Virus record (IMG/VR): IMGVR_UViG_3300017593_000402
Location: 32,001 to 96,000 of that record
Length of the DNA stretch: 64,000 bases
Origin: a virus
Direction: 5' to 3' (one strand)
The notes beneath the pieces are model-generated. The model did not search any database, was not told where the DNA came from, and was given only the letters and a program-made list of their open reading frames with translations. A program made the translations under genes and the position numbers. Below, piece after piece: positions 4,080 to 36,900 of the stretch. How positions within the stretch are numbered: position 1 is the first letter of the stretch; every line of letters begins with the position of its first letter.

Positions 4080-5152
4080 GAATCGCAATTCTAGGGGCAG
4101 ACGGCTACTTAGGTTTTGCACTTTCACATCATTTGCTTAGAGAAGGGCACTCTGTACTAGGCGTTGACAATTTAAAGCGGGAGTCTTTAGTAGAGGCGAC
4201 CTCCTCTTATTCGATTATTCGTCACTCTTTTGAGTCCTTAAAAGATTTACAGACTGTTGAGTTAGATGTTACAGATTCCGCTGCCTTACGTGACCGATTG
4301 GAGAAGTTTGAGCCTGATTTGATTGTCGACTTATCCCGGTTATACAGCCCAGCCCTTTTTCAGCAGCGAGACCAATTGCTTTGTGTTACTAACCTTTACA
4401 ACACCATTTCGGTTGTAAATACACTAGCTTCGTCCGCTTTACGTAACGTTCCTTTATTTGTGGTAACCGATCTAAACTCCTATTATCCCTCACAACTACC
4501 GGTTCCAGAAGGTCCGTTATTGATTCACCACAATGAGCTTGAGGATTTTTTACCTTTTCCATTGAAAGGGGACTCTCTTAATCAGTGTACTGAAGCCTTT
4601 GTTCAAATTTTCTTAACATATGCTCGTAACCACTTAAAACTCAAGTTAGTCGATCTCCGTGTAGGTTCTGTGTATGGTGTGTATCCAAGTGAGGAACCAC
4701 TTCATCGATTGCACGTTGACAAGTTTCATAGTACCGTCATTAACTACTATTGCGCCCGAGGCGTCCGTCAAGGGATCGTAAATGTGCCTCAGGAGGGTTA
4801 CTATACTATTATCTCGTTGAATCAATTTGTTGAGAGTTTTACTTACTTGTTGACTAAGAAGGTGGACAAACCCATTGTTCATTTGTTCGATCGGCTGGTC
4901 AGCTTTCAGGATTTGATTTATAAGATAAAACATGTTTTTGCGGAGGATTTTGGGTATAGACTACGAATTGGGTTCTTTCGTACTAAAACATTTGAGTTTA
5001 CTTGGCCACAGTTTGTCCACATTGAAAGGGAACTCTTGAGTGATTGTTTCTTAAGTGATACAATTGAGCTTGAGGATGATTTGAGAACGTTGATCGATGT
5101 GTGCTTCAGGAATAAGAAGAAAATCACTTCGTTACCTCGTTCTTTGTGGTAG
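4076..5152 (+). CDS. NAD-dependent epimerase/dehydratase, UDP-sulfoquinovose synthase (SqdB/Agl3)-like, catalytic YxxxK missing
   Basis: ILGADGYLG Rossmann motif, VDNLKR, EG...LPFP, DLRVGSVYG, STVINYYC follow the SqdB layout; SLNQCTE stands where SxYHxSK is expected. Confidence 0.7.
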   Translation: MRIAILGADGYLGFALSHHLLREGHSVLGVDNLKRESLVEATSSYSIIRHSFESLKDLQTVELDVTDSAALRDRLEKFEPDLIVDLSRLYSPALFQQRDQLLCVTNLYNTISVVNTLASSALRNVPLFVVTDLNSYYPSQLPVPEGPLLIHHNELEDFLPFPLKGDSLNQCTEAFVQIFLTYARNHLKLKLVDLRVGSVYGVYPSEEPLHRLHVDKFHSTVINYYCARGVRQGIVNVPQEGYYTIISLNQFVESFTYLLTKKVDKPIVHLFDRLVSFQDLIYKIKHVFAEDFGYRLRIGFFRTKTFEFTWPQFVHIERELLSDCFLSDTIELEDDLRTLIDVCFRNKKKITSLPRSLW

Positions 5153-5163
5153 GAGGAAAGAGT

Positions 5164-6051
5164 ATGAGAGTCCTAATCTTGGACGATGAGGCGCCAGTAA
5201 GGGACTTTTTTAAGTCTTTCCTCGAGAGTAGTTTTGACAATTGTGAGTGTTATACTTGCGGTTCAGTTCAAGAGTTTAAGAAGTTAAATACTGAAGTCAA
5301 TCCCGATTTCTACATCCTTGACGTTGTCCTACTCAATGGGCAAGTGTTCTCAGCGGTGGACCAGTTTGACCCTGCACGGGCGATACTTGTGACAGGTTAC
5401 GATTCGGATAGAGTTCGTAAAATCGCCCGCGTATATGGGTTTCACGGGGTTCTTCCCAAGCCTGTAAATGGAGACGTGTTGAAAAGTATGCTGGATTCTT
5501 TGGTATTGAGGGTGAGCCCCCGCTTACGGTCTAGAGTTCAGGATTTAATGGGCGTTTTCCCGAAACTGTTTGAAGTTCTTGCAAAGAGTTTGGTTAGTGG
5601 GCAGAAAGTGCAAGAATGTGTTGAGATAGTTGGTAAAGCTCTTAACGCAACAGTGATAGTTTCCCCATTTGAACAAGGTGGTATGATTAGTTTCCCTTTG
5701 TTTGCATACTTTAAAGAGGGCGAACCTAAAATGCCCCGACGATTTAAGTTACCTAAAGGTTGGTTTGATCAGTTGTTGAACGGGAAATTTGTTACCTGTT
5801 TCGAACAGGGACTCGACGAGCTTGGCATCGATGTTAAGAGGGCTTTAGCATTTCCTATCAAGGGCGAAGGTATAGGTCAATGGGGTTTCTTCTTGACTTA
5901 TGATGATAAGGATGCTCCTTATTCTCAAGAGGAAATTACGTTCGTGAAGTGTGTTACGGATATTCTTGCTCTTGCATTACTCCGGCTACGTCATAATACT
6001 ACTCTCGAGACTGTGCTTCGCAACGCCATTACGAAGGTGAGTGCTTTTTGA
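5164..6051 (+). CDS. Response-regulator receiver domain + GAF-like domain
   Basis: RBS AGGAGG before ATG 5164; ILDDE, phospho-Asp ILDV, VTG, LPKP; C-terminal WGFF...YSQEEITFVKCVTDILALAL resembles a GAF end. Confidence 0.8.
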   Translation: MRVLILDDEAPVRDFFKSFLESSFDNCECYTCGSVQEFKKLNTEVNPDFYILDVVLLNGQVFSAVDQFDPARAILVTGYDSDRVRKIARVYGFHGVLPKPVNGDVLKSMLDSLVLRVSPRLRSRVQDLMGVFPKLFEVLAKSLVSGQKVQECVEIVGKALNATVIVSPFEQGGMISFPLFAYFKEGEPKMPRRFKLPKGWFDQLLNGKFVTCFEQGLDELGIDVKRALAFPIKGEGIGQWGFFLTYDDKDAPYSQEEITFVKCVTDILALALLRLRHNTTLETVLRNAITKVSAF

Positions 6052-6340
6052 AGTAACGGTGGACTTAAGGAATCTCTCTACAGTCGAAGAATTGTTGGTT
6101 GAACTAGTACGAGGGAATACGTCTGCCACGGAGAAGTTAGTTGAGCGGGTGACTGTGATTGAACGTAAGGCAGAAAGTCTGTGTGAAAATCAAACTTCTG
6201 TTGTGTCGAGTGTGACTGAAGTTAAACTCCGAGTAGATGATATTTGGCGTATTTTACGGAGTTTGTTCATTAAAGTTATCCTAGTTTGTGGCTCCGTTTG
6301 TGCGATTAGTTTCGTGTTAGGATATCTTTTAAAAGGATAG
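6041..6340 (+). CDS. Coiled-coil protein with C-terminal transmembrane helix
   Basis: Heptad-like N-part followed by hydrophobic VILVCGSVCAISFVLGYLL. Confidence 0.6.
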   Translation: MLFEVTVDLRNLSTVEELLVELVRGNTSATEKLVERVTVIERKAESLCENQTSVVSSVTEVKLRVDDIWRILRSLFIKVILVCGSVCAISFVLGYLLKG

Positions 6341-6342
6341 GA

Positions 6343-7134
6343 TTACATCTCCGTGATCTTGAAAGAGACCTTCCGCAGTGTTAGATCGTACACCGGAATA
6401 CAGTTTTGGTGTACTCCCCCCTTTAGCGCTTTAATCTCTGGCCTCTCTTCTACCGGGAACATTCTCTGTAGTCTAATATAAAGAGGAACGAAGTAGTAAA
6501 TAGGTATTTTGGGTATTAAGAAGAGATGATATGCAGGTGCGTAGTGTATAAAGTTTTTGATAAGTGTCTGTTTTTCGGGTAAGTCGTTGACTATTTTGTG
6601 AAGATCAATGGAAATTGGGTTGGTATAGTTTTTAGGGTACATAGGCGCGTACTTCCTACTCAAGACCGGCGGTGTGAGCTCTAAATTGTAGATGGGAGCG
6701 AACGTTGAGAAAGGTGTTCCGTAGTATGCGTTTGACCAGTGAACATAAGTTGGTAGAAATTTTTCGAGGACTTGTTTGGTCACTCTGGCGATTGGGTCTT
6801 CTTCAATCTTGAGAGGAGTGAAGACCATAAAATCGAGATCGTGCGGTGTTCCGTAGAAGACTGATCCTGTTACGATCACGTAGGGGTTTTTGATCTGGAA
6901 AGGTAACATCCTGTTCAAACTTCTTTTTACTTTATGAGCGTTTACCCCTCTCTTACGCAGTTCTCTGACTATTAAGCTGTCGAGTTTCATAAGCTGCGAT
7001 AGAGTCAAACCCCCGACTTTCCCTCCTTTTTTTCGGGCCTTTTTAATCAGGGCTACTACAATTGAGTGCTTAAAAAGCAGGTCTTTAGTAGGGATTTTTG
7101 ATAAATCGGCCCCTAAAAGCTGAGTTACTTTCAT
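6343..7134 (-). CDS. Pol-beta-superfamily nucleotidyltransferase-like protein
   Basis: Only reverse-strand gene; RBS AAGGAG before ATG 7134; VTGSVFYGTPHDLDFMV = GS...DxD motif. Confidence 0.6.
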   Translation of the reverse strand: MKVTQLLGADLSKIPTKDLLFKHSIVVALIKKARKKGGKVGGLTLSQLMKLDSLIVRELRKRGVNAHKVKRSLNRMLPFQIKNPYVIVTGSVFYGTPHDLDFMVFTPLKIEEDPIARVTKQVLEKFLPTYVHWSNAYYGTPFSTFAPIYNLELTPPVLSRKYAPMYPKNYTNPISIDLHKIVNDLPEKQTLIKNFIHYAPAYHLFLIPKIPIYYFVPLYIRLQRMFPVEERPEIKALKGGVHQNCIPVYDLTLRKVSFKITEM

Positions 7135-7143
7135 ACTTACTCC

Positions 7144-7172
7144 TTGCACTAGTTGGTTGGTTCTAGTATAAA
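7144..7172 (+). promoter_or_regulatory. Sigma70-like promoter upstream of the portal gene
   Basis: TTGCAC-17 bp-TATAAA in the divergent intergenic gap. Confidence 0.5.
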
Positions 7173-21200: not shown

Positions 21201-21629
21201 ATGATTTATTTGCACGAAGTTCAGTCGGATTTGAGTAGTAAGATTGAGTCCGTTTTGACGGATTTGGATCAAACGTATAATTTGGGGTTGATTAGAGCTC
21301 CGGTGATAGTTTCCTCCTTACCAGAGGATCGCGTTACTCCTTCTACTTACTTGAAAATGGAAGAGGTTTCAAGTCAAGAGAAGGTTTTCTTTCGGTGTAC
21401 TGGAACGTTACTCGTTGAGTTATCTTTTGAGATAGGTGAAGATGTGGCTTCGAGCCTGATCCGGAAGTTAGGTAATAAGTTGCAAGATCAATTGGAGCGA
21501 AGAAATAATACTACCCATACCTACTATTCAGGTAGTGTTAAAAGAGTCACGTGGTCTCTTCCTAAGGAAGAGATGGTTAGAACAATTAAAGTTGAGTTCG
21601 AGGTACAAGGCATTGAGCAACCAATCTAG
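21201..21629 (+). CDS. Putative tail terminator
   Basis: 142 aa; lies between the gp10-like gene and the tail tube. Confidence 0.5.
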   Translation: MIYLHEVQSDLSSKIESVLTDLDQTYNLGLIRAPVIVSSLPEDRVTPSTYLKMEEVSSQEKVFFRCTGTLLVELSFEIGEDVASSLIRKLGNKLQDQLERRNNTTHTYYSGSVKRVTWSLPKEEMVRTIKVEFEVQGIEQPI

Positions 21630-21849
21630 TGCTTGGAAGTGCTCAAGTTGTGGGGCCGTCCTAGGTTACCTGGATGGTACAGACATCTTGCGTATCAAGT
21701 ATAAGGACTTATACTTTTACGTAAATGTTATAAGAGGAGCTTCGTTGATAAAGTGTTTGTGTCGTAAGTGTGGTAAAGTTAATGAAGTTATGGCGAAAGC
21801 GATGAAGATGAGTGAACCTGCTGTGATCGAACTGGAGAAGTACTTGTAG
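21613..21849 (+). CDS. Small zinc-ribbon protein (Mu Com-like)
   Basis: WKCSSCGAVLG...CLCRKCGKVN; start uncertain (TTG 21613 or the ORF-track 21535). Confidence 0.6.
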   Translation: MSNQSSAWKCSSCGAVLGYLDGTDILRIKYKDLYFYVNVIRGASLIKCLCRKCGKVNEVMAKAMKMSEPAVIELEKYL

Positions 21850-21900: not shown

Positions 21901-21945
21901 ATGAACACACCAACTTATAACACCAAAAGATTGAGTTTCGGGCCT
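21901..21945 (+). CDS. Major tail tube protein, exon 1 (MNTPTYNTKRLSFGP)
   Basis: Strong RBS GAGGAGGTG; in-frame TGA just after unless spliced; joining to 23135 gives ...LSFGPGVLYIG... Confidence 0.85.
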
Positions 21946-23134
21946 AAGTGACACTGGGCCCGTAAAACCTCTGCTGATCAACGGGGAAACACAATGGTAT
22001 CCACTCAGCTAAATGAGATTTTAGATGGATTAATTTTCAGTGATGGGCATATTGCTTATTGTAAGGCTGGTGACTATAGGTTCGAGTTGGGGACGACCAA
22101 GCGTTTGTACGCAGAGCAAGTTTGTAACCTTCTTCGTCCTGTTATTTCCTGTTCTATTAGAGAACAAGTACGTATTGGATTTGGGAAGAAATTTATCTCT
22201 TACAGAGTTGTTGGATATAAAGCTCCTGTTATGAAGAATCTTCACTATCGTTGGTATGATGATAAAAAGAAAAAGCTTCCCAAAGATTTTAGATGGACGC
22301 CTACTACTTTGAACGTTGCTTATTGTGGTGATGGTACTGTTATTGAGAATAGCCCGACTATGTGCTTAAATAGTTGGGCGGTTCCCGAGGTGAAAGAGAT
22401 AGTTAGGTGCTTTGAAGAGTTGGGCTTGTATGGGACGGTTGTCCAAACCCCAACAGGACCGATTTTTAGGTTACATCAAGATTGTGCCCTAGATTTCTTC
22501 GAGTACATAGGAGACCCACTAATTCCGTTTCACTCTTATAAGTGGATTACCGTTGTCAACCCCCAGCAAGCAGTTCGCGCGACTCTGTGGGACGATGACC
22601 TAGCTCAAAAGGTTGCGAGGTGTATTAAGAAGATTATGATTTTACGCGTTTGGGGAGGTTCGAAGGAACGGCGGTACTTGTCGTACTTTCCTGAGTTAGT
22701 CGTAATGGTTAATGATAAAGACGTTAAAGATGCCCTTCAGAGAATCAGAACTTCAAGGAAGAAAGGTGAGGTTGTAGTTAGAGGTCGACAAGCGAAACGT
22801 GTTTTAGAAAGGGTCCATTTGTTTCTTCCGGACGATAAACGAATGTTAGCTACAATTGCGTTAGCTTTGCCTCTTGGGCGGAGGAAGAAAGATTTGAAGG
22901 AAGTTCTATATCAGTTTTTCTGGACGAAATTTAATGAATTAAATCCGCCCGAGAGAAGACGGGGACCCAAAAGAGAGTTGAATAGCGAACTGCGGCTGCA
23001 GAGACTGAGCGTAGAGGACACTAACCTCTTTCAGGATCTGGTTAGTGTATACGACAGTCCGACCCCTACGGTGACGTAGGGAAGTAGTTGTACTACTTGC
23101 CCGAAAGGGTCAAGAAAAATAACAGGTTAAAGCG
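21946..23134 (+). mobile_element. Group I self-splicing intron in the tail tube gene
   Basis: P1 GGGCCU/GGGCCC with U.G at the 5' splice site; P10 ACACU/GGUGU; P3 21968-74/23011-17; P5 21991-22005/22541-56; P6a 22570-78/22985-93; P7 GACUG/CAGUC; P8 23018-26/23040-48; P9 with GUGA loop; terminal G 23134. Confidence 0.92.
21994..23079 (+). CDS. Intron-encoded LAGLIDADG homing endonuclease (double motif) fused to a second degenerate LAGLIDADG-like domain
   Basis: ILDGLIFSDGHI and LNVAYCGDGT motifs, domain end IPFHSYKW; C-part VVRGRQAKRVLERVHLFLPDDKR..A.IAL. Confidence 0.85.
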   Translation: MVSTQLNEILDGLIFSDGHIAYCKAGDYRFELGTTKRLYAEQVCNLLRPVISCSIREQVRIGFGKKFISYRVVGYKAPVMKNLHYRWYDDKKKKLPKDFRWTPTTLNVAYCGDGTVIENSPTMCLNSWAVPEVKEIVRCFEELGLYGTVVQTPTGPIFRLHQDCALDFFEYIGDPLIPFHSYKWITVVNPQQAVRATLWDDDLAQKVARCIKKIMILRVWGGSKERRYLSYFPELVVMVNDKDVKDALQRIRTSRKKGEVVVRGRQAKRVLERVHLFLPDDKRMLATIALALPLGRRKKDLKEVLYQFFWTKFNELNPPERRRGPKRELNSELRLQRLSVEDTNLFQDLVSVYDSPTPTVT

Positions 23135-23638
23135 GGTGTGCTTTATATTGGAAGCGCCGGCCAAACACCTACTATTGATATAGGCGCTGTTAAGACTGGA
23201 GCAACTCTAACATTTACTCGAGATAAACTCGAGGTTAAACAGGGTTCTCCCGAGAAGTTGATCAAACAGTGGGTTGTTACTGAGACAGTTAAACTAGATG
23301 TTGTTGGTCATGAATGGAATCTTGAGAATTTGAGGTATGCTATTGGTTGTGGTATCATTCAAACTTCGGGAAATGAGAAGACGATGGATTTCGGCGGAGA
23401 TATGGAAGTTACTGAAGCGTCGCTGAAGTTCGTTCACCAGATGCCTGCTGGAGGAACTGTGGAAATTGATATTTGGAGAGCTCAGTCCGCAGGAGAACTC
23501 TCGATCGAGTTTGGGAACGATCCACACGAATTCCCTTACTCGTTCGTTGCTCTGGATGCCGATACTGCTTGGGATGGCACTACCTTGGATGAGAGGGGAA
23601 GGTTGTGCCGAATTAGGTTAATCGGTGACTTCTCCTAA
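23135..23638 (+). CDS. Major tail tube protein, exon 2 (spliced product 182 aa)
   Basis: GVLYIG...IDIGAVKTGATLTF...EIDIWRAQ..GELSIEF...FPYSFVAL; precedes chaperones and tape measure; no good RBS of its own. Confidence 0.85.
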   Translation, partial: GVLYIGSAGQTPTIDIGAVKTGATLTFTRDKLEVKQGSPEKLIKQWVVTETVKLDVVGHEWNLENLRYAIGCGIIQTSGNEKTMDFGGDMEVTEASLKFVHQMPAGGTVEIDIWRAQSAGELSIEFGNDPHEFPYSFVALDADTAWDGTTLDERGRLCRIRLIGDFS

Positions 23639-33955: not shown

Positions 33956-36900
33956 ATGGGCTGGCTCCCAGAATATTCACACAGAATCAGGTTCAAGATT
34001 GATCATGCAAAGATTGACTCTGATCTTACTCACTTCCCTATTACCCTCTTCTTGACTGAAGATAATGCTGATGCAGTCTTTAATGAACTGGGTTCTAACT
34101 ATAAGAAGATTGCAGTTACTTCTGATGATGGTACTACTCAACTTTATGTAGAAGTTGAAGTATGGGACTCAGCGAATAAACAGGCAGTTCTCCATATTTC
34201 TAGGTCGTCTTGGACTATTTCGTCATCTTCAGATACTTATTTTTATCTTTACTACGACGCGTCTGTTGCAGACAACACAACTTACGTTGGAGATCCTGGA
34301 GATTCTGTTGCTGCAAATGTTTGGGATGACAACTTTAAAGCGGTTTACCATTTATCTCAAAATCCCACAGGAGGCAATGGATGTATTAAAGATAGCACCA
34401 GCAACAATAATGACGGTACTCCTCATGGAAGTATGACTTCAGATGATTTAGTTGATGGGGGGGTAGGAAAGGCTCTGGACTTCGACGGAAGTGACGACTA
34501 TGTGGATTGTGGGAGCGACGGCAGCTTGGATATTACTGGTCCTCTTACAATAGAGTCAGTTGTGAAGTTATCTTCTACAGGCGGGAGTCAAGCTTTTTTT
34601 GAAGGGCGTCTGCAATATACATTGTGGGTGAATTCAAGTGGTAGAGTACGCCTTGCAGACACGCAAGGTAACTACTGTGATTCAGATTCTGGTGATTTTG
34701 CCTGGGATGTTTATCAGTACGTAGCTGGCAAGTTTTCGGGTTCTTCTGGAGACTCTATTACCACGTCCAATGCTGCTGTTTTTATAAACGACGCTAATGT
34801 AACAGCAGCTACGGGAGGTACGTGGTTGCCACAGTCTCTTTCTACTGCTGTAATTGCGTGTTCTCCTCAAGCTACGCCCATCTCTTTTGCAGATGGTTTG
34901 ATAGACGAAGTAAGAATTTCCAACGTGGCTCGTTCCGATGCTTGGATCAAGGCGACTTATTATTCTTTATTTAATAGTTTGATAACTGTTTGTGAGCATG
35001 TAACGGCGTGGAGTTATAGAAAGAAAATTACTATTTCTGGTTCTCCAGGAGCCGGAACAGGTTATCAAGTCCTTTTAAAAGTAGGAGAAAGTTCTGGAGC
35101 TAGTAACTGTGATTTCCATGTTGAAGGGCATTCTGCCAAGTTCCCTTCAGGAACCAATGATTCAGGAGACCTTCGTTTTGTAGATAACGATGGTTCTACT
35201 TTTTTAAACTTCTGGGTTGAGAAGGTAGAAGGTGAGGCACCCAATAGAGTAGCTTATTGTTGGGTTAAGATAAACGACAACTTAGATTCGGATGTGAATA
35301 TTTACTGTTATTATGGCAACCCTGGGACAGGTAATGTAAGCAACGGGAAAAATACGTTTGAGTTCTTTGACGATTTTAGCATTGACTCACTTTCAAACTA
35401 TGATCTGATTTCGGTGTTTCACTTCGGCGACGGTACTGATGATAAAACAGCAGGAACTTATGATGTAGTTAATCAGAGAGTAAACATTAACACTGGTGAT
35501 AACCTTGAAACGGTTTATTCCCCGAAAAATTTTACCATCAGAAATTTTCATGCCCAGGCTAAGTTTCTTGTTTCAGGAGGCTACCCGTATGGTGCTACGG
35601 GTACTGTAGTAGGACGGTATCAAGATGACAACAATATGTACACAGGCCAAAAGGCAGCACAACAGTATAGTGAGACTGGGGGGACAGGTTCTTATTGTAG
35701 TTATACATCACCAATAATACGTAAGTGGGTTGCTAGTACCGAGAGTGACATTGCTACACCCCCGTCAAATAATTACATTCCAATGAATACTGAAACTATA
35801 CTAGCTCTAGCAATATATGAAAACAATATAAAATTCTTTGTTGACGGTTCAGAGGTTTTATCGACTACAGACTCTGATTTATCTGATGCAGGCAGGGTGG
35901 CATTTGGAGCGGGTCAGTGGGAGGGCTGGCTGGATGAGATCAGAGTCCGTAAATATGTGTCTCCCGAACCTTCTTTCTCTACTGCAGGAGACGAAGAGCA
36001 ACTTGTCGGCCCTACCTGGTATCAGGCTATTTCTTGTATTCGAAATCGCCTTTACGAGATTGCCTACAATTCTAAACATTACCTTACTTCTACCTTTTAT
36101 ATGTTCTTTAGAATTTGGGGAGGTGATATTACTAAAGTCAAGAACAAAGTATTTGCTGATGCGTTAACTTTAATAGCCAACCAAGTTCGATCCTATCAGC
36201 TCGTGGTCCCTCATTTGATTCAACATTGGGACGGCCCTGAAGGTGATTACCGGCTCGTTCCTCCTTCTACTCGCGAACGTCCATGGTGGTGGTGGCCTTA
36301 TTCTTGCGGTGAACCCGTATCTAAAGGGCAGGAGGGTATTAACTATTCACGTATTTCGAAGGATCGTCGTTACGACACGTTTTTCTCCCCCCAACGGTAT
36401 TATTGGGGTGTAATAGTAGGGACACCGTACTCACGAACTCCCTCATCTTACGCAGGTAAAACAATTGAGGACAAACCAAAGAATTTCTTCTGGAACAGAG
36501 TTTACGTTGTCCCTACAAAAATTGATTTCGGATTTACTAAGGTAGGTTCGTCTCGGTTAATTCACATTTTACATCGTTATGAAGACACCTCTCACGATTT
36601 ACAATCTGTTTCTTCTTCGGATCCTACGTTTTCGGTAACTCTTCCTGAGCCTTTGCCTCACACTATGGCTCCCGGGGCTGAGATGGACGGTCTTGTGAAT
36701 GTGGCACAGGTGGGGGCAGTGAGAGTAGTAGACGCGCCCATCTACTTCCATTTTGATACAGTAGGAGACGCCATTTGTTATGTTTCTGCTACGTTCGCTA
36801 TAGTCCTCTTGAAACCGAGAAAGTATGATCAATGGAATACACCTCATACTTTTCAGAAGATAAAGTTCAAGTTCGAAACAGAATTGGTTCACAACTTAGC

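What the first reader, a model, noticed from the sequence alone, without database searches (positions are those of the whole stretch)
21980..23081. One ORF threads two separate endonuclease insertions through the ribozyme core, with its start codon locked in P5
Seen: insertion 1 lies in the P5 loop (22006-22540, double-motif LAGLIDADG ending SYKW). Insertion 2 lies in the P6a loop (22579-22984, LAGLIDADG-like body with the motif decayed to LAQKVARCIKK). The frame stays open across P5', P4', P6 (ITVVNPQQAVR), then P7, P3', P8 and P7', and stops in P9. The AUG (21994) is inside the 15-bp P5 helix and the likely SD (GGGGA) is the P4 strand. Inference: two successive invasions fused into one protein, with the dead domain possibly a maturase or extra DNA-binding module. 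Translation and ribozyme folding would be mutually exclusive, giving a switch between endonuclease and tail tube production.
Basis: partly seen in the sequence, partly recalled or inferred. Interest (0 to 1): 0.85.

Follow-up and report, generated by a model that had tools for sequence, protein, structure and literature searches.

The report
Two-loop endonuclease gene in phage intron
A self-splicing intron in a phage tail-tube gene carries one long gene that runs through two separate loops and through the catalytic RNA core itself, joining a working-looking DNA-cutting enzyme to a catalytically disarmed relative that selection has nevertheless kept.

Summary
Window 21946-23134 (1189 nt) interrupts a tail-tube gene exactly where nine uninterrupted homologues read SFGP|GVLY. 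It follows a U and ends in G.

- **Ribozyme fold:** it folds as a group I ribozyme. Helices covary across 18 related introns: 85.6% of cells paired against 37-41% in slid controls, and 0 of 500 shuffles reached it.
- **The ORF:** one 361-aa ORF (21994-23079) starts inside the P5 5' strand, 6 nt after the P4 G-run. It fills L5 with an I-SceI-like double-motif LAGLIDADG. It then crosses P5'/P4'/P6, fills L6a with an I-CreI-fold domain (Z 11.7) that has no catalytic motif, and ends in P9.
- **Origin:** relatives at the same site carry the L6a domain alone. The wider intron class normally houses canonical single-motif LAGLIDADG genes in L6a. This supports "old resident plus later L5 invader".
- **The C-domain is not junk:** amino-acid change is far below saturated synonymous change.
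- **Open points:** its function (maturase-like RNA binding is my lead) and the translation/folding "switch" remain inference.
- **Prior knowledge:** ORF-core overlap ("core creep") is known; a single ORF bridging two loops is a new variant.
- **Rfam** does not detect this intron class.

Other first-stage notes of this scan flagged the same intron.

The parts
21901..21945 (+). Tail-tube exon 1 (15 codons, strong AGGAGG-type ribosome site upstream)
   Evidence: Uninterrupted 182-aa homologues P0003 and P0005 begin with the same 15 residues and continue directly into exon 2.
21946..23134 (+). Group I-type intron, 1189 nt; preceded by U21945, ends in G23134
   Evidence: exon junction; fold and covariation.
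21939..21962 (+). P1 hairpin: 21939-46 pairs with 21955-62, with the U21945-G21956 wobble at the 5' splice site. The in-frame UGA at 21949-51 lies in its loop.
   Evidence: The same arrangement is visible in L012, L013 and L014.
21968..21974 (+). P3 5' strand; pairs with 23011-23017
   Evidence: 7 pairs, 100% of cells paired, 6 pairs with changes on both sides.
21983..21986 (+). P4 5' strand (G-run); pairs with 22560-22563. Also the only Shine-Dalgarno-like element before the ORF.
   Evidence: It is weak compared with the AGGAGG/GGAGG sites found at 16 of 39 surveyed genes.
21991..22005 (+). P5 5' strand; contains the ORF start codon at 21994-96
21994..23079 (+). 361-aa ORF threading L5, the core, L6a and the 3' core
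   Evidence: Homologues with the same architecture: P0008 (= L012) and P0010 (= L013) full-length, and P0013.
22006..22540 (+). Insertion 1 in L5. With the P5 strands it codes aa 1-185, an I-SceI-like double-motif LAGLIDADG.
   Evidence: Pfam PF03161, 45.9 bits against cut-off 25. phrog_11023, 3.5e-20. Foldseek 1r7m_A, E 3.6e-10, TMt 0.71.
22541..22556 (+). P5 3' strand (bulged U22548); coding
22560..22567 (+). P4' (22560-63) and P6 5' strand (22564-67; pairs with 22995-98); coding. pLDDT is below 50 in the protein model here.
22570..22578 (+). P6a 5' strand; pairs with 22985-22993
22579..22984 (+). Insertion 2 in L6a. 22588-22932 codes a 115-aa LAGLIDADG-fold domain without a catalytic motif.
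   Evidence: Model pLDDT 91.5, pTM 0.83. VIA Z 11.7, rmsd 2.4 A, 110 of 115 residues aligned to I-CvuI/I-MsoI/I-CreI. No Pfam hit.
22985..22998 (+). P6a 3' strand and P6 3' strand; coding
23001..23060 (+). P7 (23001, 23003-07 with 23055-60), P3' (23011-17), P8 hairpin (23018-26/23040-48) and J8/7; all coding
   Evidence: P8: 8 of 9 pairs show double changes. P7 is invariant because the search pattern selected for it.
23064..23110 (+). P9 (23064-70/23075-81, holding the ORF stop TAG at 23077-79), P9.1 (23082-88/23092-98) and P9.2 (23099-102/23107-110)
   Evidence: P9: 6 of 7 pairs show double changes.
23135..23638 (+). Tail-tube exon 2

Best explanation
A mobile group I-type intron sits 45 nt into the tail-tube gene of a 137-kb phage from hydrothermal-vent metagenomes.

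It belongs to a common phage intron class in which a single-motif LAGLIDADG homing-endonuclease gene normally occupies the P6a loop and reads out into the ribozyme core. In this lineage that resident lost its catalytic motif but was kept by selection as a basic, I-CreI-fold domain. Later a second, complete I-SceI-like endonuclease gene entered the P5 loop. It landed in frame with a leader that already started in P5.

The result is one 361-aa protein. Its inter-domain linker and C-terminal tail are the RNA core read as codons (P5'-P4'-P6, and P6'-P7-P3'-P8-P7'-P9).

Inferred, not shown:
- The N domain cuts intron-less alleles at the SFGP|GVLY coding site and drives homing.
- The C domain binds nucleic acid. 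My leading guess (about 0.4) is the intron RNA, acting as a maturase.
- Formation of the long-range P4 and P5 helices closes a weak ribosome site and the AUG once the 3' strands are transcribed. This would limit endonuclease synthesis to a co-transcriptional burst and leave the RNA free to fold and splice.
For: **Intron**
- Exon junction: two uninterrupted 182-aa homologues and nine intron-less loci read straight across the site.
- The intron follows a U that is wobble-paired to G in P1, and it ends in G.
- On 18 introns and 61 pairs, 85.6% of cells are paired, against 36.7-41.0% when partners are slid. Cells with double changes number 214, against 47-63. 0 of 500 shuffles reached this.
- The P3/P7 pseudoknot is included. 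P3 is 100% paired, with 6 of 7 pairs changed on both sides.
- P5 has 4 compensatory double changes between W and L012/L013.
- The core without the insertions folds at -121.9 kcal/mol, z -7.2.

**Protein**
- Pfam, PHROG and Foldseek support the N domain. The acidic residues of both motifs are conserved in all 5 N-bearing sequences.
- The C-domain fold scores Z 11.7.
- A profile of the C-domain against 14 canonical L6a LAGLIDADGs of the same intron class gives E 5.7e-5, probability 65.7%.

**History**
- L014 has the C-domain only, at the same site, with a GTG start in P5.
- Where my junction motif matched (38 of 53 class loci), the J3/4-to-P7 spacing was 55-121 nt in 21 loci and 430-714 nt in 17.
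- Only W, L012 and L013 reach 975-1023 nt.

**Selection**
- L012 against L013, C-domain: 72 of 112 residues identical, dN 0.27, with synonymous sites saturated.
- Core-coded tail: dN 0.55 against dS 0.64.
- Core-coded stretches have pLDDT below 50 in the protein model.
- The C-domain has 28 K+R against 14 D+E. Its helices and basic loop are more conserved (0.48-0.70) than its strands (0.27-0.32).
Against: - No Rfam RF00028 match at the locus at any threshold. Compact class members also gave none.
- No RNA data and no splicing or cleavage assay.
- Only three independent two-insertion sequences have DNA, and L013 is cut short.
- The class loci were found with a pattern that fixes P7 and J8/7. 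The counted structure was derived from W.
- Structure models rest on 7-row alignments.
- dS is saturated, so dN/dS is only qualitative.
- The predicted C-domain dimer uses the C-terminal helices, not the LAGLIDADG-type helix. Canonical dimerisation is therefore not indicated.
- The start site is not sequestered in the nascent 200 nt, which weakens any strict "lock".
- P0012 shows an N+C unit whose linker does not read like W's, in a context I could not fetch.
Confidence: 0.8

Rival explanations
1. The C-domain is an accessory DNA-binding or dimerisation module of the endonuclease. It would extend or stabilise target recognition, as modular DNA-binding domains do in other homing enzymes. It would not be an RNA-binding maturase.
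For: - It has the I-CreI fold.
- It is strongly basic and has a conserved basic loop before the last helix. The title of PDB entry 2o7m says the C-terminal loop of I-CreI is essential for DNA binding.
- Homodimer model: ipSAE 0.47 against a best of 3 controls of 0.00. That mark was reached by 20 of 30 proteins solved as pairs of one chain and by 1 of 23 solved as single chains. The runs agree in 100% of contacts, and partner pLDDT is at least 83. My own alignment was used, so these counts hold only roughly.
Against: - The domain occurs alone, with no endonuclease partner, in L014, P0011 and P0009.
- Its beta-sheet face, which reads DNA in this fold, is the least conserved part. Yet all these introns share one insertion site.
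Confidence: 0.25
2. The C-domain is a decaying remnant translated only as a passenger. The open frame through the core is an accident of short distance.
For: - The catalytic motif is gone.
- The linker is only about 14 codons.
- The tail evolves with dN about equal to dS.
Against: - Synonymous sites are saturated while 64% of C-domain residues are identical between L012 and L013. About half are identical between W and L012.
- The frame is open in all six cluster representatives found among 1.84 billion.
- C-only forms are intact.
Confidence: 0.08
3. It is not an intron. A free-standing endonuclease gene lies between a 16-codon ORF and a truncated tail-tube gene.
For: No Rfam hit.
Against: - Removing exactly 21946-23134 restores the conserved N-terminus.
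- Long-range helices covary.
- The GTG-started exon 2 lacks the first 24 profile positions of phrog_2175.
Confidence: 0.03

Closest known systems
Phage T4 td intron with I-TevI (passages read in PMC3073962)
   Same: A phage group I intron with the endonuclease ORF in the P6 region. The ORF's 3' end supplies core nucleotides (P6a/P7). The ribosome site is masked by RNA structure, and translation and splicing are in conflict.
   Different: - In T4 td the overlap is 20 nt at one end, there is one ORF in one loop, the enzyme is GIY-YIG, and a local hairpin masks the ribosome site.
- Here the ORF spans two loops, both ends and the middle are core, and the masking helices are the long-range P4 and P5 themselves.
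"Core creep" cases: the Synechococcus lividus LSU intron LAGLIDADG with 81 nt of overlap (Table 1 of PMC3073962), and fungal mitochondrial intron ORFs fused to the upstream exon (passages in PMC8393795)
   Same: ORFs that extend into P6/P7/P3/P8/P9 or upstream core. RNA and protein constraints act on the same bases.
   Different: Those are extensions of one inserted gene. Here a core segment is the linker between two separately inserted domains. I found no such case in the listings. That does not show there is none.
I-SceI and I-CreI / I-MsoI / I-CvuI (solved structures)
   Same: The N domain superposes on monomeric I-SceI. The C domain superposes on one subunit of the homodimeric I-CreI type.
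   Different: - Sequence identity is 10-22%.
- The C domain lacks the motif's acidic residue.
- The modelled dimer does not use the motif helix.
LAGLIDADG maturases: bI3 maturase (2ab5, listed), I-AniI, and the Thermotoga neapolitana 23S intron protein (passage in PMC3984707)
   Same: An intron-encoded LAGLIDADG-fold protein kept after, or alongside, loss of cleavage activity. The review states that an endonuclease may take on a maturase role to avoid loss.
   Different: RNA binding by this C-domain is untested. The known maturases are double-motif proteins, not a single disarmed domain fused to a separate active enzyme.

Membership tests
Group I self-splicing intron | 5' exon ends in U that forms a U-G wobble in P1; the intron ends in G | tested here: met
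   U21945-G21956 and G23134. The same holds in L012 and L014, and at the 5' end of L013.
Group I self-splicing intron | Precise removal restores the host reading frame at a conserved site | tested here: met
   Nine intron-less loci and two 182-aa proteins read across the junction.
Group I self-splicing intron | Conserved core: P3-P8 and P7 forming a pseudoknot, plus a P4-P6 domain, supported by covariation | tested here: met
   61 pairs, 85.6% paired against 37-41% slid, 43 pairs with double changes, 0 of 500 shuffles. P7 invariance is by ascertainment.
Group I self-splicing intron | Match to the Rfam RF00028 covariance model (a detector, not a defining feature) | tested here: inconclusive
   No match at the locus. 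None in 38 related loci either, compact introns included. The model does fire over its cut-off in 2 of 14 control genomes.
Group I self-splicing intron | Guanosine-dependent self-splicing | not testable with these tools
   No RNA run holds the locus.
LAGLIDADG homing endonuclease, double-motif monomer (N domain) | Family profile match above the curated cut-off | tested here: met
   PF03161, 45.9 bits against 25, aa 8-157.
LAGLIDADG homing endonuclease, double-motif monomer (N domain) | Two motif helices, each ending in a conserved acidic residue | tested here: met
   Both motifs are aligned and conserved in 5 of 5 N-bearing sequences. The role of the acidic residues is recalled, not tested.
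LAGLIDADG homing endonuclease, double-motif monomer (N domain) | Fold | tested here: met
   I-SceI 1r7m_A: E 3.6e-10, TMt 0.71, 193 columns.
LAGLIDADG homing endonuclease, double-motif monomer (N domain) | Site-specific cleavage of the intron-less allele | not testable with these tools
   Needs an enzyme assay.
Active single-motif LAGLIDADG endonuclease (C domain) | Alpha-beta-beta-alpha-beta-beta-alpha fold | tested here: met
   Z 11.7, rmsd 2.4 A, 110 of 115 residues.
Active single-motif LAGLIDADG endonuclease (C domain) | Motif with a catalytic acidic residue at the end of the first helix | tested here: not met
   In all 7 family members, conserved basic residues follow the first helix and no conserved acid is present. 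The domain is therefore filed as a fold relative, not as an active endonuclease.
Active single-motif LAGLIDADG endonuclease (C domain) | Sequence-profile membership (PF00961 / PF14528) | tested here: not met
   No hit for W, L012 or L014 C-domains. Of the 5 canonical L6a ORFs of the class that were scanned, 3 pass PF00961 and 2 fall just under.
LAGLIDADG-type intron maturase (C domain) | Binds its intron RNA and promotes splicing | not testable with these tools
   Indirect only: retention without a catalytic motif, occurrence alone, basic charge, and conservation off the beta-sheet face.

The most novel reading that the evidence does not exclude
A phage group I intron has come to depend on its own disarmed LAGLIDADG domain as a maturase. 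It then captured a second, active endonuclease in frame. The result is a two-domain homing-plus-splicing protein whose linker and tail are the ribozyme core. Its synthesis is timed by formation of the long-range P4 and P5 helices, giving a co-transcriptional burst followed by closure. The natural series at one insertion site (ORF-less, C-only, N+C) would make "core creep" and endonuclease succession directly testable.
Probability: 0.3. Interest if true: 0.8.

Novelty: new variant of a known kind. Interest (0 to 1): 0.62.

Why it matters
- It gives a compact, testable bacterial-virus example of three debated steps in mobile-intron evolution. These are survival of a disarmed endonuclease, re-invasion of an occupied intron by a second endonuclease gene, and sharing of the same bases between a catalytic RNA core and a protein.
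- Natural intermediates exist at the same insertion site.
- It exposes an abundant phage intron class that the standard Rfam model does not detect. One strict motif found it on 53 viral and 20 genome contigs. Genes split by these introns are therefore likely to be mis-annotated as truncated.

Tried and rejected
**Searches that found nothing**
- Rfam at gathering and at E up to 10 gave no group I match in the window, in L005 and L012-14, in 16 viral loci, in compact L046, or in 18 genome loci.
- RF00028 on the whole genome gave one 19-bit match elsewhere.
- tblastn of exon 2 against GenBank phages: none.
- The ORF against GenBank phages: only 3 Haloarcula virus records, about 26% identity, N half only.
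- blastn of the 3' core against phages: none.
- Single-protein scans of viral contigs with exon 2, the ORF, P0012 and P0013: none. The A2 alignment also found none.
- A profile of the C-domain against PDB sequences gave only chance nanobody rows.
- ESM Atlas: scores of 0.78, no lead.
- No RNA holder was listed among sequencing runs, so expression and splicing could not be examined. Laid DNA contigs showed no joint across the intron.
- The promoter/terminator scan showed nothing specific.

**Readings rejected**
- The MFE alternative for P3 (21970-74 with 22998-23002). L012 and L014 would break it, while the canonical P3 covaries.
- An I-CreI-like dimer through the motif helix. The model's interface is residues 74-113.

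**Left unresolved**
- How the HNH-intron allele of L005 and of the laid contigs is spliced in frame.
- The architecture behind P0012.

**Dropped before the count**
- From alignment A8 I dropped L038 (near-identical to L026) and L013 (cut short). I kept L050 although it is partly misaligned.

**Literature limits**
- Supplements of papers are closed and may hold intron tables that bear on novelty.
Full report
**Setting**

The window is bases 32001-96000 of a 137,043-bp viral record. DNA runs that hold it are hydrothermal-vent metagenomes. Around the finding lies a siphovirus-type structural module: large terminase, major head protein, a neck protein, a tail chaperone and a 2205-aa tape measure.

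The ORF after the finding (23138-23638) matches phrog_2175 only from profile position 25. So its N-terminus is missing.

**The host gene is split**

A search of 5.8 billion proteins with exon 2 gave 6 relatives. Two of them (P0003 and P0005, 182 aa) are 16 residues longer. They begin with the same 15 residues that the window encodes at 21901-45, behind a strong AGGAGG-type site.

Removing 21946-23134 joins ...SFGP to GVLY.... Nine intron-less loci from viral contigs read across this conserved spot. The intervening 1189 nt follow a U and end in G.

**It folds as a group I-type ribozyme**

An unconstrained fold of 21930-23150 recovers the following:
- P1, with a U21945-G21956 wobble at the splice site.
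- P4, at 21983-86 paired with 22561-64. I re-register the 3' strand to 22560-63, to match the class consensus.
- P5, 15 bp across 535 nt.
- P6 and P6a, across 406 nt.
- P7, P8, P9, P9.1 and P9.2.

With the two insertions left out, the 296 nt fold at -121.9 kcal/mol, z -7.2 against 200 shuffles.

Rfam gave no group I match at any threshold. I therefore looked for relatives.

**Relatives**

The ORF has a 354-aa homologue with 46% identity over its whole length (P0008). An exhaustive search with aa 184-361 found 6 cluster representatives among 1.84 billion.

A metagenome scan returned three loci with introns at the same codon:
- L012: both insertions.
- L013: both insertions, contig cut in P9.
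- L014: only the second insertion.

A strict pattern over P7...J8/7-P7' found 53 viral contigs and 20 bacterial or archaeal genome contigs. All but one of the viral ones (L056) show the same P7-P3'-P8-J8/7-P7'-P9 layout, with variable hairpins.

My junction motif matched in 38 of the 53 viral contigs. In those, the J3/4-to-P7 distance is 55-121 nt in 21 (compact, ORF-less) and 430-714 nt in 17. For W, L012 and L013 it is 1023, 980 and 975 nt.

**Covariation**

I used a MAFFT alignment of W, L012, L014 and 15 compact introns. I counted the 61 pairs of P3, P4, P5, P6/P6a, P7, P8 and P9 as drawn on W.

| Measure | Observed | With 3' partners slid 1-3 columns |
|---|---|---|
| Cells forming standard pairs | 85.6% | 36.7-41.0% |
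| Cells with changes on both sides | 214 | 47-63 |
| Covariation score | 0.470 | 0.070-0.110 |

- 0 of 500 shuffles reached any of the five measures.
- P3, which crosses P7 as a pseudoknot, is 100% paired, with 6 of 7 pairs changed on both sides.
- P8 has 8 of 9 pairs with double changes, and P9 has 6 of 7.

Caveats:
- P7 never varies because the pattern fixed it.
- The structure came from W.
- P5 and the outer P6a columns of compact introns are not positionally homologous. They are 67% and 76% paired.

For the long-range helices I compared the insertion-bearing introns directly:
- P5 shows four compensatory double changes and one one-sided change between W and L012/L013. Both strands are coding.
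- The closing duplexes beat every control window inside the insertions. For P5, 0 of 160, 0 of 162 and 0 of 161 windows were as strong. For P6a, 0 of 112, 0 of 96 and 0 of 95.

**The ORF**

ORF 21994-23079 starts with an ATG inside the P5 5' strand, 6 nt after the P4 G-run. It ends with a TAG in the P9 3' strand.

The same layout (G-run, 5-6 nt, then ATG or GTG in P5) holds in L012, L013 and L014.

Among 39 surveyed genes of the window, 16 have AGGAGG or GGAGG and 25 have some GGAG-type site. The G-run is a weak site by comparison.

**The N domain**

Residues 8-157 match Pfam LAGLIDADG_2 at 45.9 bits against a cut-off of 25. Residues 2-185 match phrog_11023.

The model superposes on I-SceI with E 3.6e-10 and TMt 0.71. 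Both motifs, with their acidic residues, are conserved in the five N-bearing sequences.

**The C domain**

It has no Pfam, PDB-sequence or Atlas match. Modelled alone it reaches pLDDT 91.5 and pTM 0.83. Only single-domain LAGLIDADG enzymes top the structure searches:
- Foldseek: E 3e-3, TMq up to 0.70.
- VIA: Z 11.7, rmsd 2.4 A, 110 of 115 residues, against I-CvuI, I-MsoI and I-CreI.

Where the motif would end, all seven family members have basic residues and no conserved acid. So I do not file it as an active endonuclease.

The stretches coded by P4'/P6 (aa 187-192) and by P6' through P9 (aa 321-361) have pLDDT below 50.

**Where the C domain came from**

In the same intron class, 18 distinct forward ORFs with a canonical single motif sit in L6a and read out into P6'/P7. 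Some stop in the first bases of P3', others run to P9. Of the five scanned, three pass PF00961 and two fall just under.

Four loci carry such genes on the reverse strand, and L050 keeps only a stump.

A profile of the C-domain against 14 of the canonical ones aligns 71 columns with E 5.7e-5 and probability 65.7%.

In L049 the canonical motif follows the P4'/P6-coded residues at the place where W has its motif-less helix.

No class member outside W, L012 and L013 showed an L5 insertion. For 15 of the 53 loci, though, my junction motif did not match.

In L014 the ORF already starts in P5 and runs through the small P5 hairpin, P4' and P6 into the C-domain. So the L5 gene most likely entered an existing leader in frame.

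**Selection**

Between L012 and L013:

| Region | Identical residues | dN | dS |
|---|---|---|---|
| N domain | 130 of 185 | 0.21 | too saturated to estimate |
| C domain | 72 of 112 | 0.27 | too saturated to estimate |
| Core-coded tail | 11 of 20 | 0.55 | 0.64 |

Between W and L012 the tail has dN 0.25 and dS 0.28. So both domains are constrained as proteins, and the tail is constrained as RNA only.

Within the C-domain, the last three helices and the basic loop are the most conserved (mean pairwise identity 0.48-0.70). The strands score 0.27-0.32. The domain has 28 K+R against 14 D+E.

A homodimer model passed its controls:
- ipSAE 0.47, against a best of 3 controls of 0.00.
- The mark was reached by 20 of 30 proteins solved as pairs of one chain and by 1 of 23 solved as single chains.
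- The runs agree in 100% of contacts, and partner pLDDT is at least 83.
- My own alignment was used, so these counts hold only roughly.
- The interface is residues 74-113, not the motif helix.

**How it probably works (inference)**

The N domain is the homing nuclease for the SFGP|GVLY site.

The C domain is a retained nucleic-acid binder. It survives alone in C-only introns, and its conserved face is not the DNA-reading sheet. The ribozyme it sits in has two roughly 0.5-kb loops to fold around. For these reasons I favour a maturase-like role (about 0.4) over a DNA accessory role (about 0.25).

The start site and its weak ribosome site are strands of P5 and P4. Their partners are transcribed about 550-575 nt later, and the nascent 200 nt do not hide them (z -0.95). 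The likely behaviour is therefore a short co-transcriptional window for initiation, followed by closure when the P4-P6 domain forms. It is not a static lock.

Exon 1 and the intron ORF are in the same frame, separated by the UGA at 21949-51.

**Comparison with print**

I read passages, not whole texts, of two reviews:
- PMC3073962 describes I-TevI's 20-nt overlap with P6a/P7, a masked ribosome site, a table of overlaps of up to 81 nt, and the "core creep" idea.
- PMC3984707 states that some endonuclease ORFs overlap the core, that a spent endonuclease may become a maturase, and that a bacterial LAGLIDADG maturase exists.

Passages of PMC8393795 describe fusion to upstream exons and composite introns gaining ORFs.

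The listings of five searches showed no paper on one ORF bridging two loops of a phage intron. That is not proof of absence, and supplements were closed.

**Population**

Contigs in three runs from two studies leave the window at 21926 and return at 23171 or 23174. They carry the start of the HNH-intron allele seen in L005. So this locus is polymorphic for different introns in nature.

**Verdict**

It needs correcting on the "dead" domain, and it is untested on the switch. This is a new variant of a known kind.

Noticed in passing
window 21926-23171; L005 4330-4995; L014 2380-2829: Relatives carry a different, HNH-encoding intron (phrog_7545, 1e-13) whose 3' end abuts the base matching window 23171, 36 nt into exon 2. 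L014 has both introns. Contigs in runs X1, X4 and X5 replace window 21927-23170 with this allele. I could not work out how the L005 allele splices in frame: it seems to lack about 16 codons.
   Followed up: partly
L012 about 4900-7157: The same tail-tube gene in L012 is interrupted again after ...VRGLE. The interrupting sequence encodes another LAGLIDADG_2-like ORF. The 5' third of this gene looks like an intron hot spot.
   Followed up: no
L012 4205-4225 and 4555-4575; L013 equivalents: A 17-nt direct repeat flanks the C-domain insertion in L012 (15 of 17 in L013). It is read in two different frames. It may be a footprint of the insertion event. W has no such repeat.
   Followed up: partly
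L013 4396-4445 and 5404-5463 against L014 1744-1795 and 2209-2270: By eye, L013 and L014 have near-identical ribozyme flanks (P1-P4 and P7-P9). Everything between P4 and P7, including the C-domain type, differs. It looks as if the P4-P6 region with its genes was exchanged as a cassette.
   Followed up: no
L015-L088: A large class of phage and prophage group I-type introns shares the P7/J8/7 signature: 53 viral and 20 genome contigs by one strict pattern. Many lie in capsid-like genes. Rfam RF00028 does not detect it, even in compact 250-nt members.
   Followed up: partly
protein P0012 (no DNA available): A 466-aa protein reads C-domain, then core-like tail, then only about 15 residues, then an N domain plus a second, diverged C-domain. 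Its linker differs from W's. It may be another arrangement (a gene in a 3' loop) or the core read in another frame.
   Followed up: no
window 21535-21849: A 104-aa ORF with two CxxC pairs (weak zinc-ribbon hits) overlaps the end of the preceding gene. It is conserved just upstream of the tail-tube gene in L005, L012, L013 and L014.
   Followed up: no
window 34190-34439, minus strand: The only RF00028 signal in the genome: 19 bits, E 9.9e-4, below the 50-bit cut-off. It lies antisense inside a 1330-aa ORF and is probably chance.
   Followed up: no
window 12434-13879: The large terminase matches phrog_38 only from profile position 269. The two ORFs just upstream (11457-12113 and 12067-12462) have no PHROG match.
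   Followed up: partly
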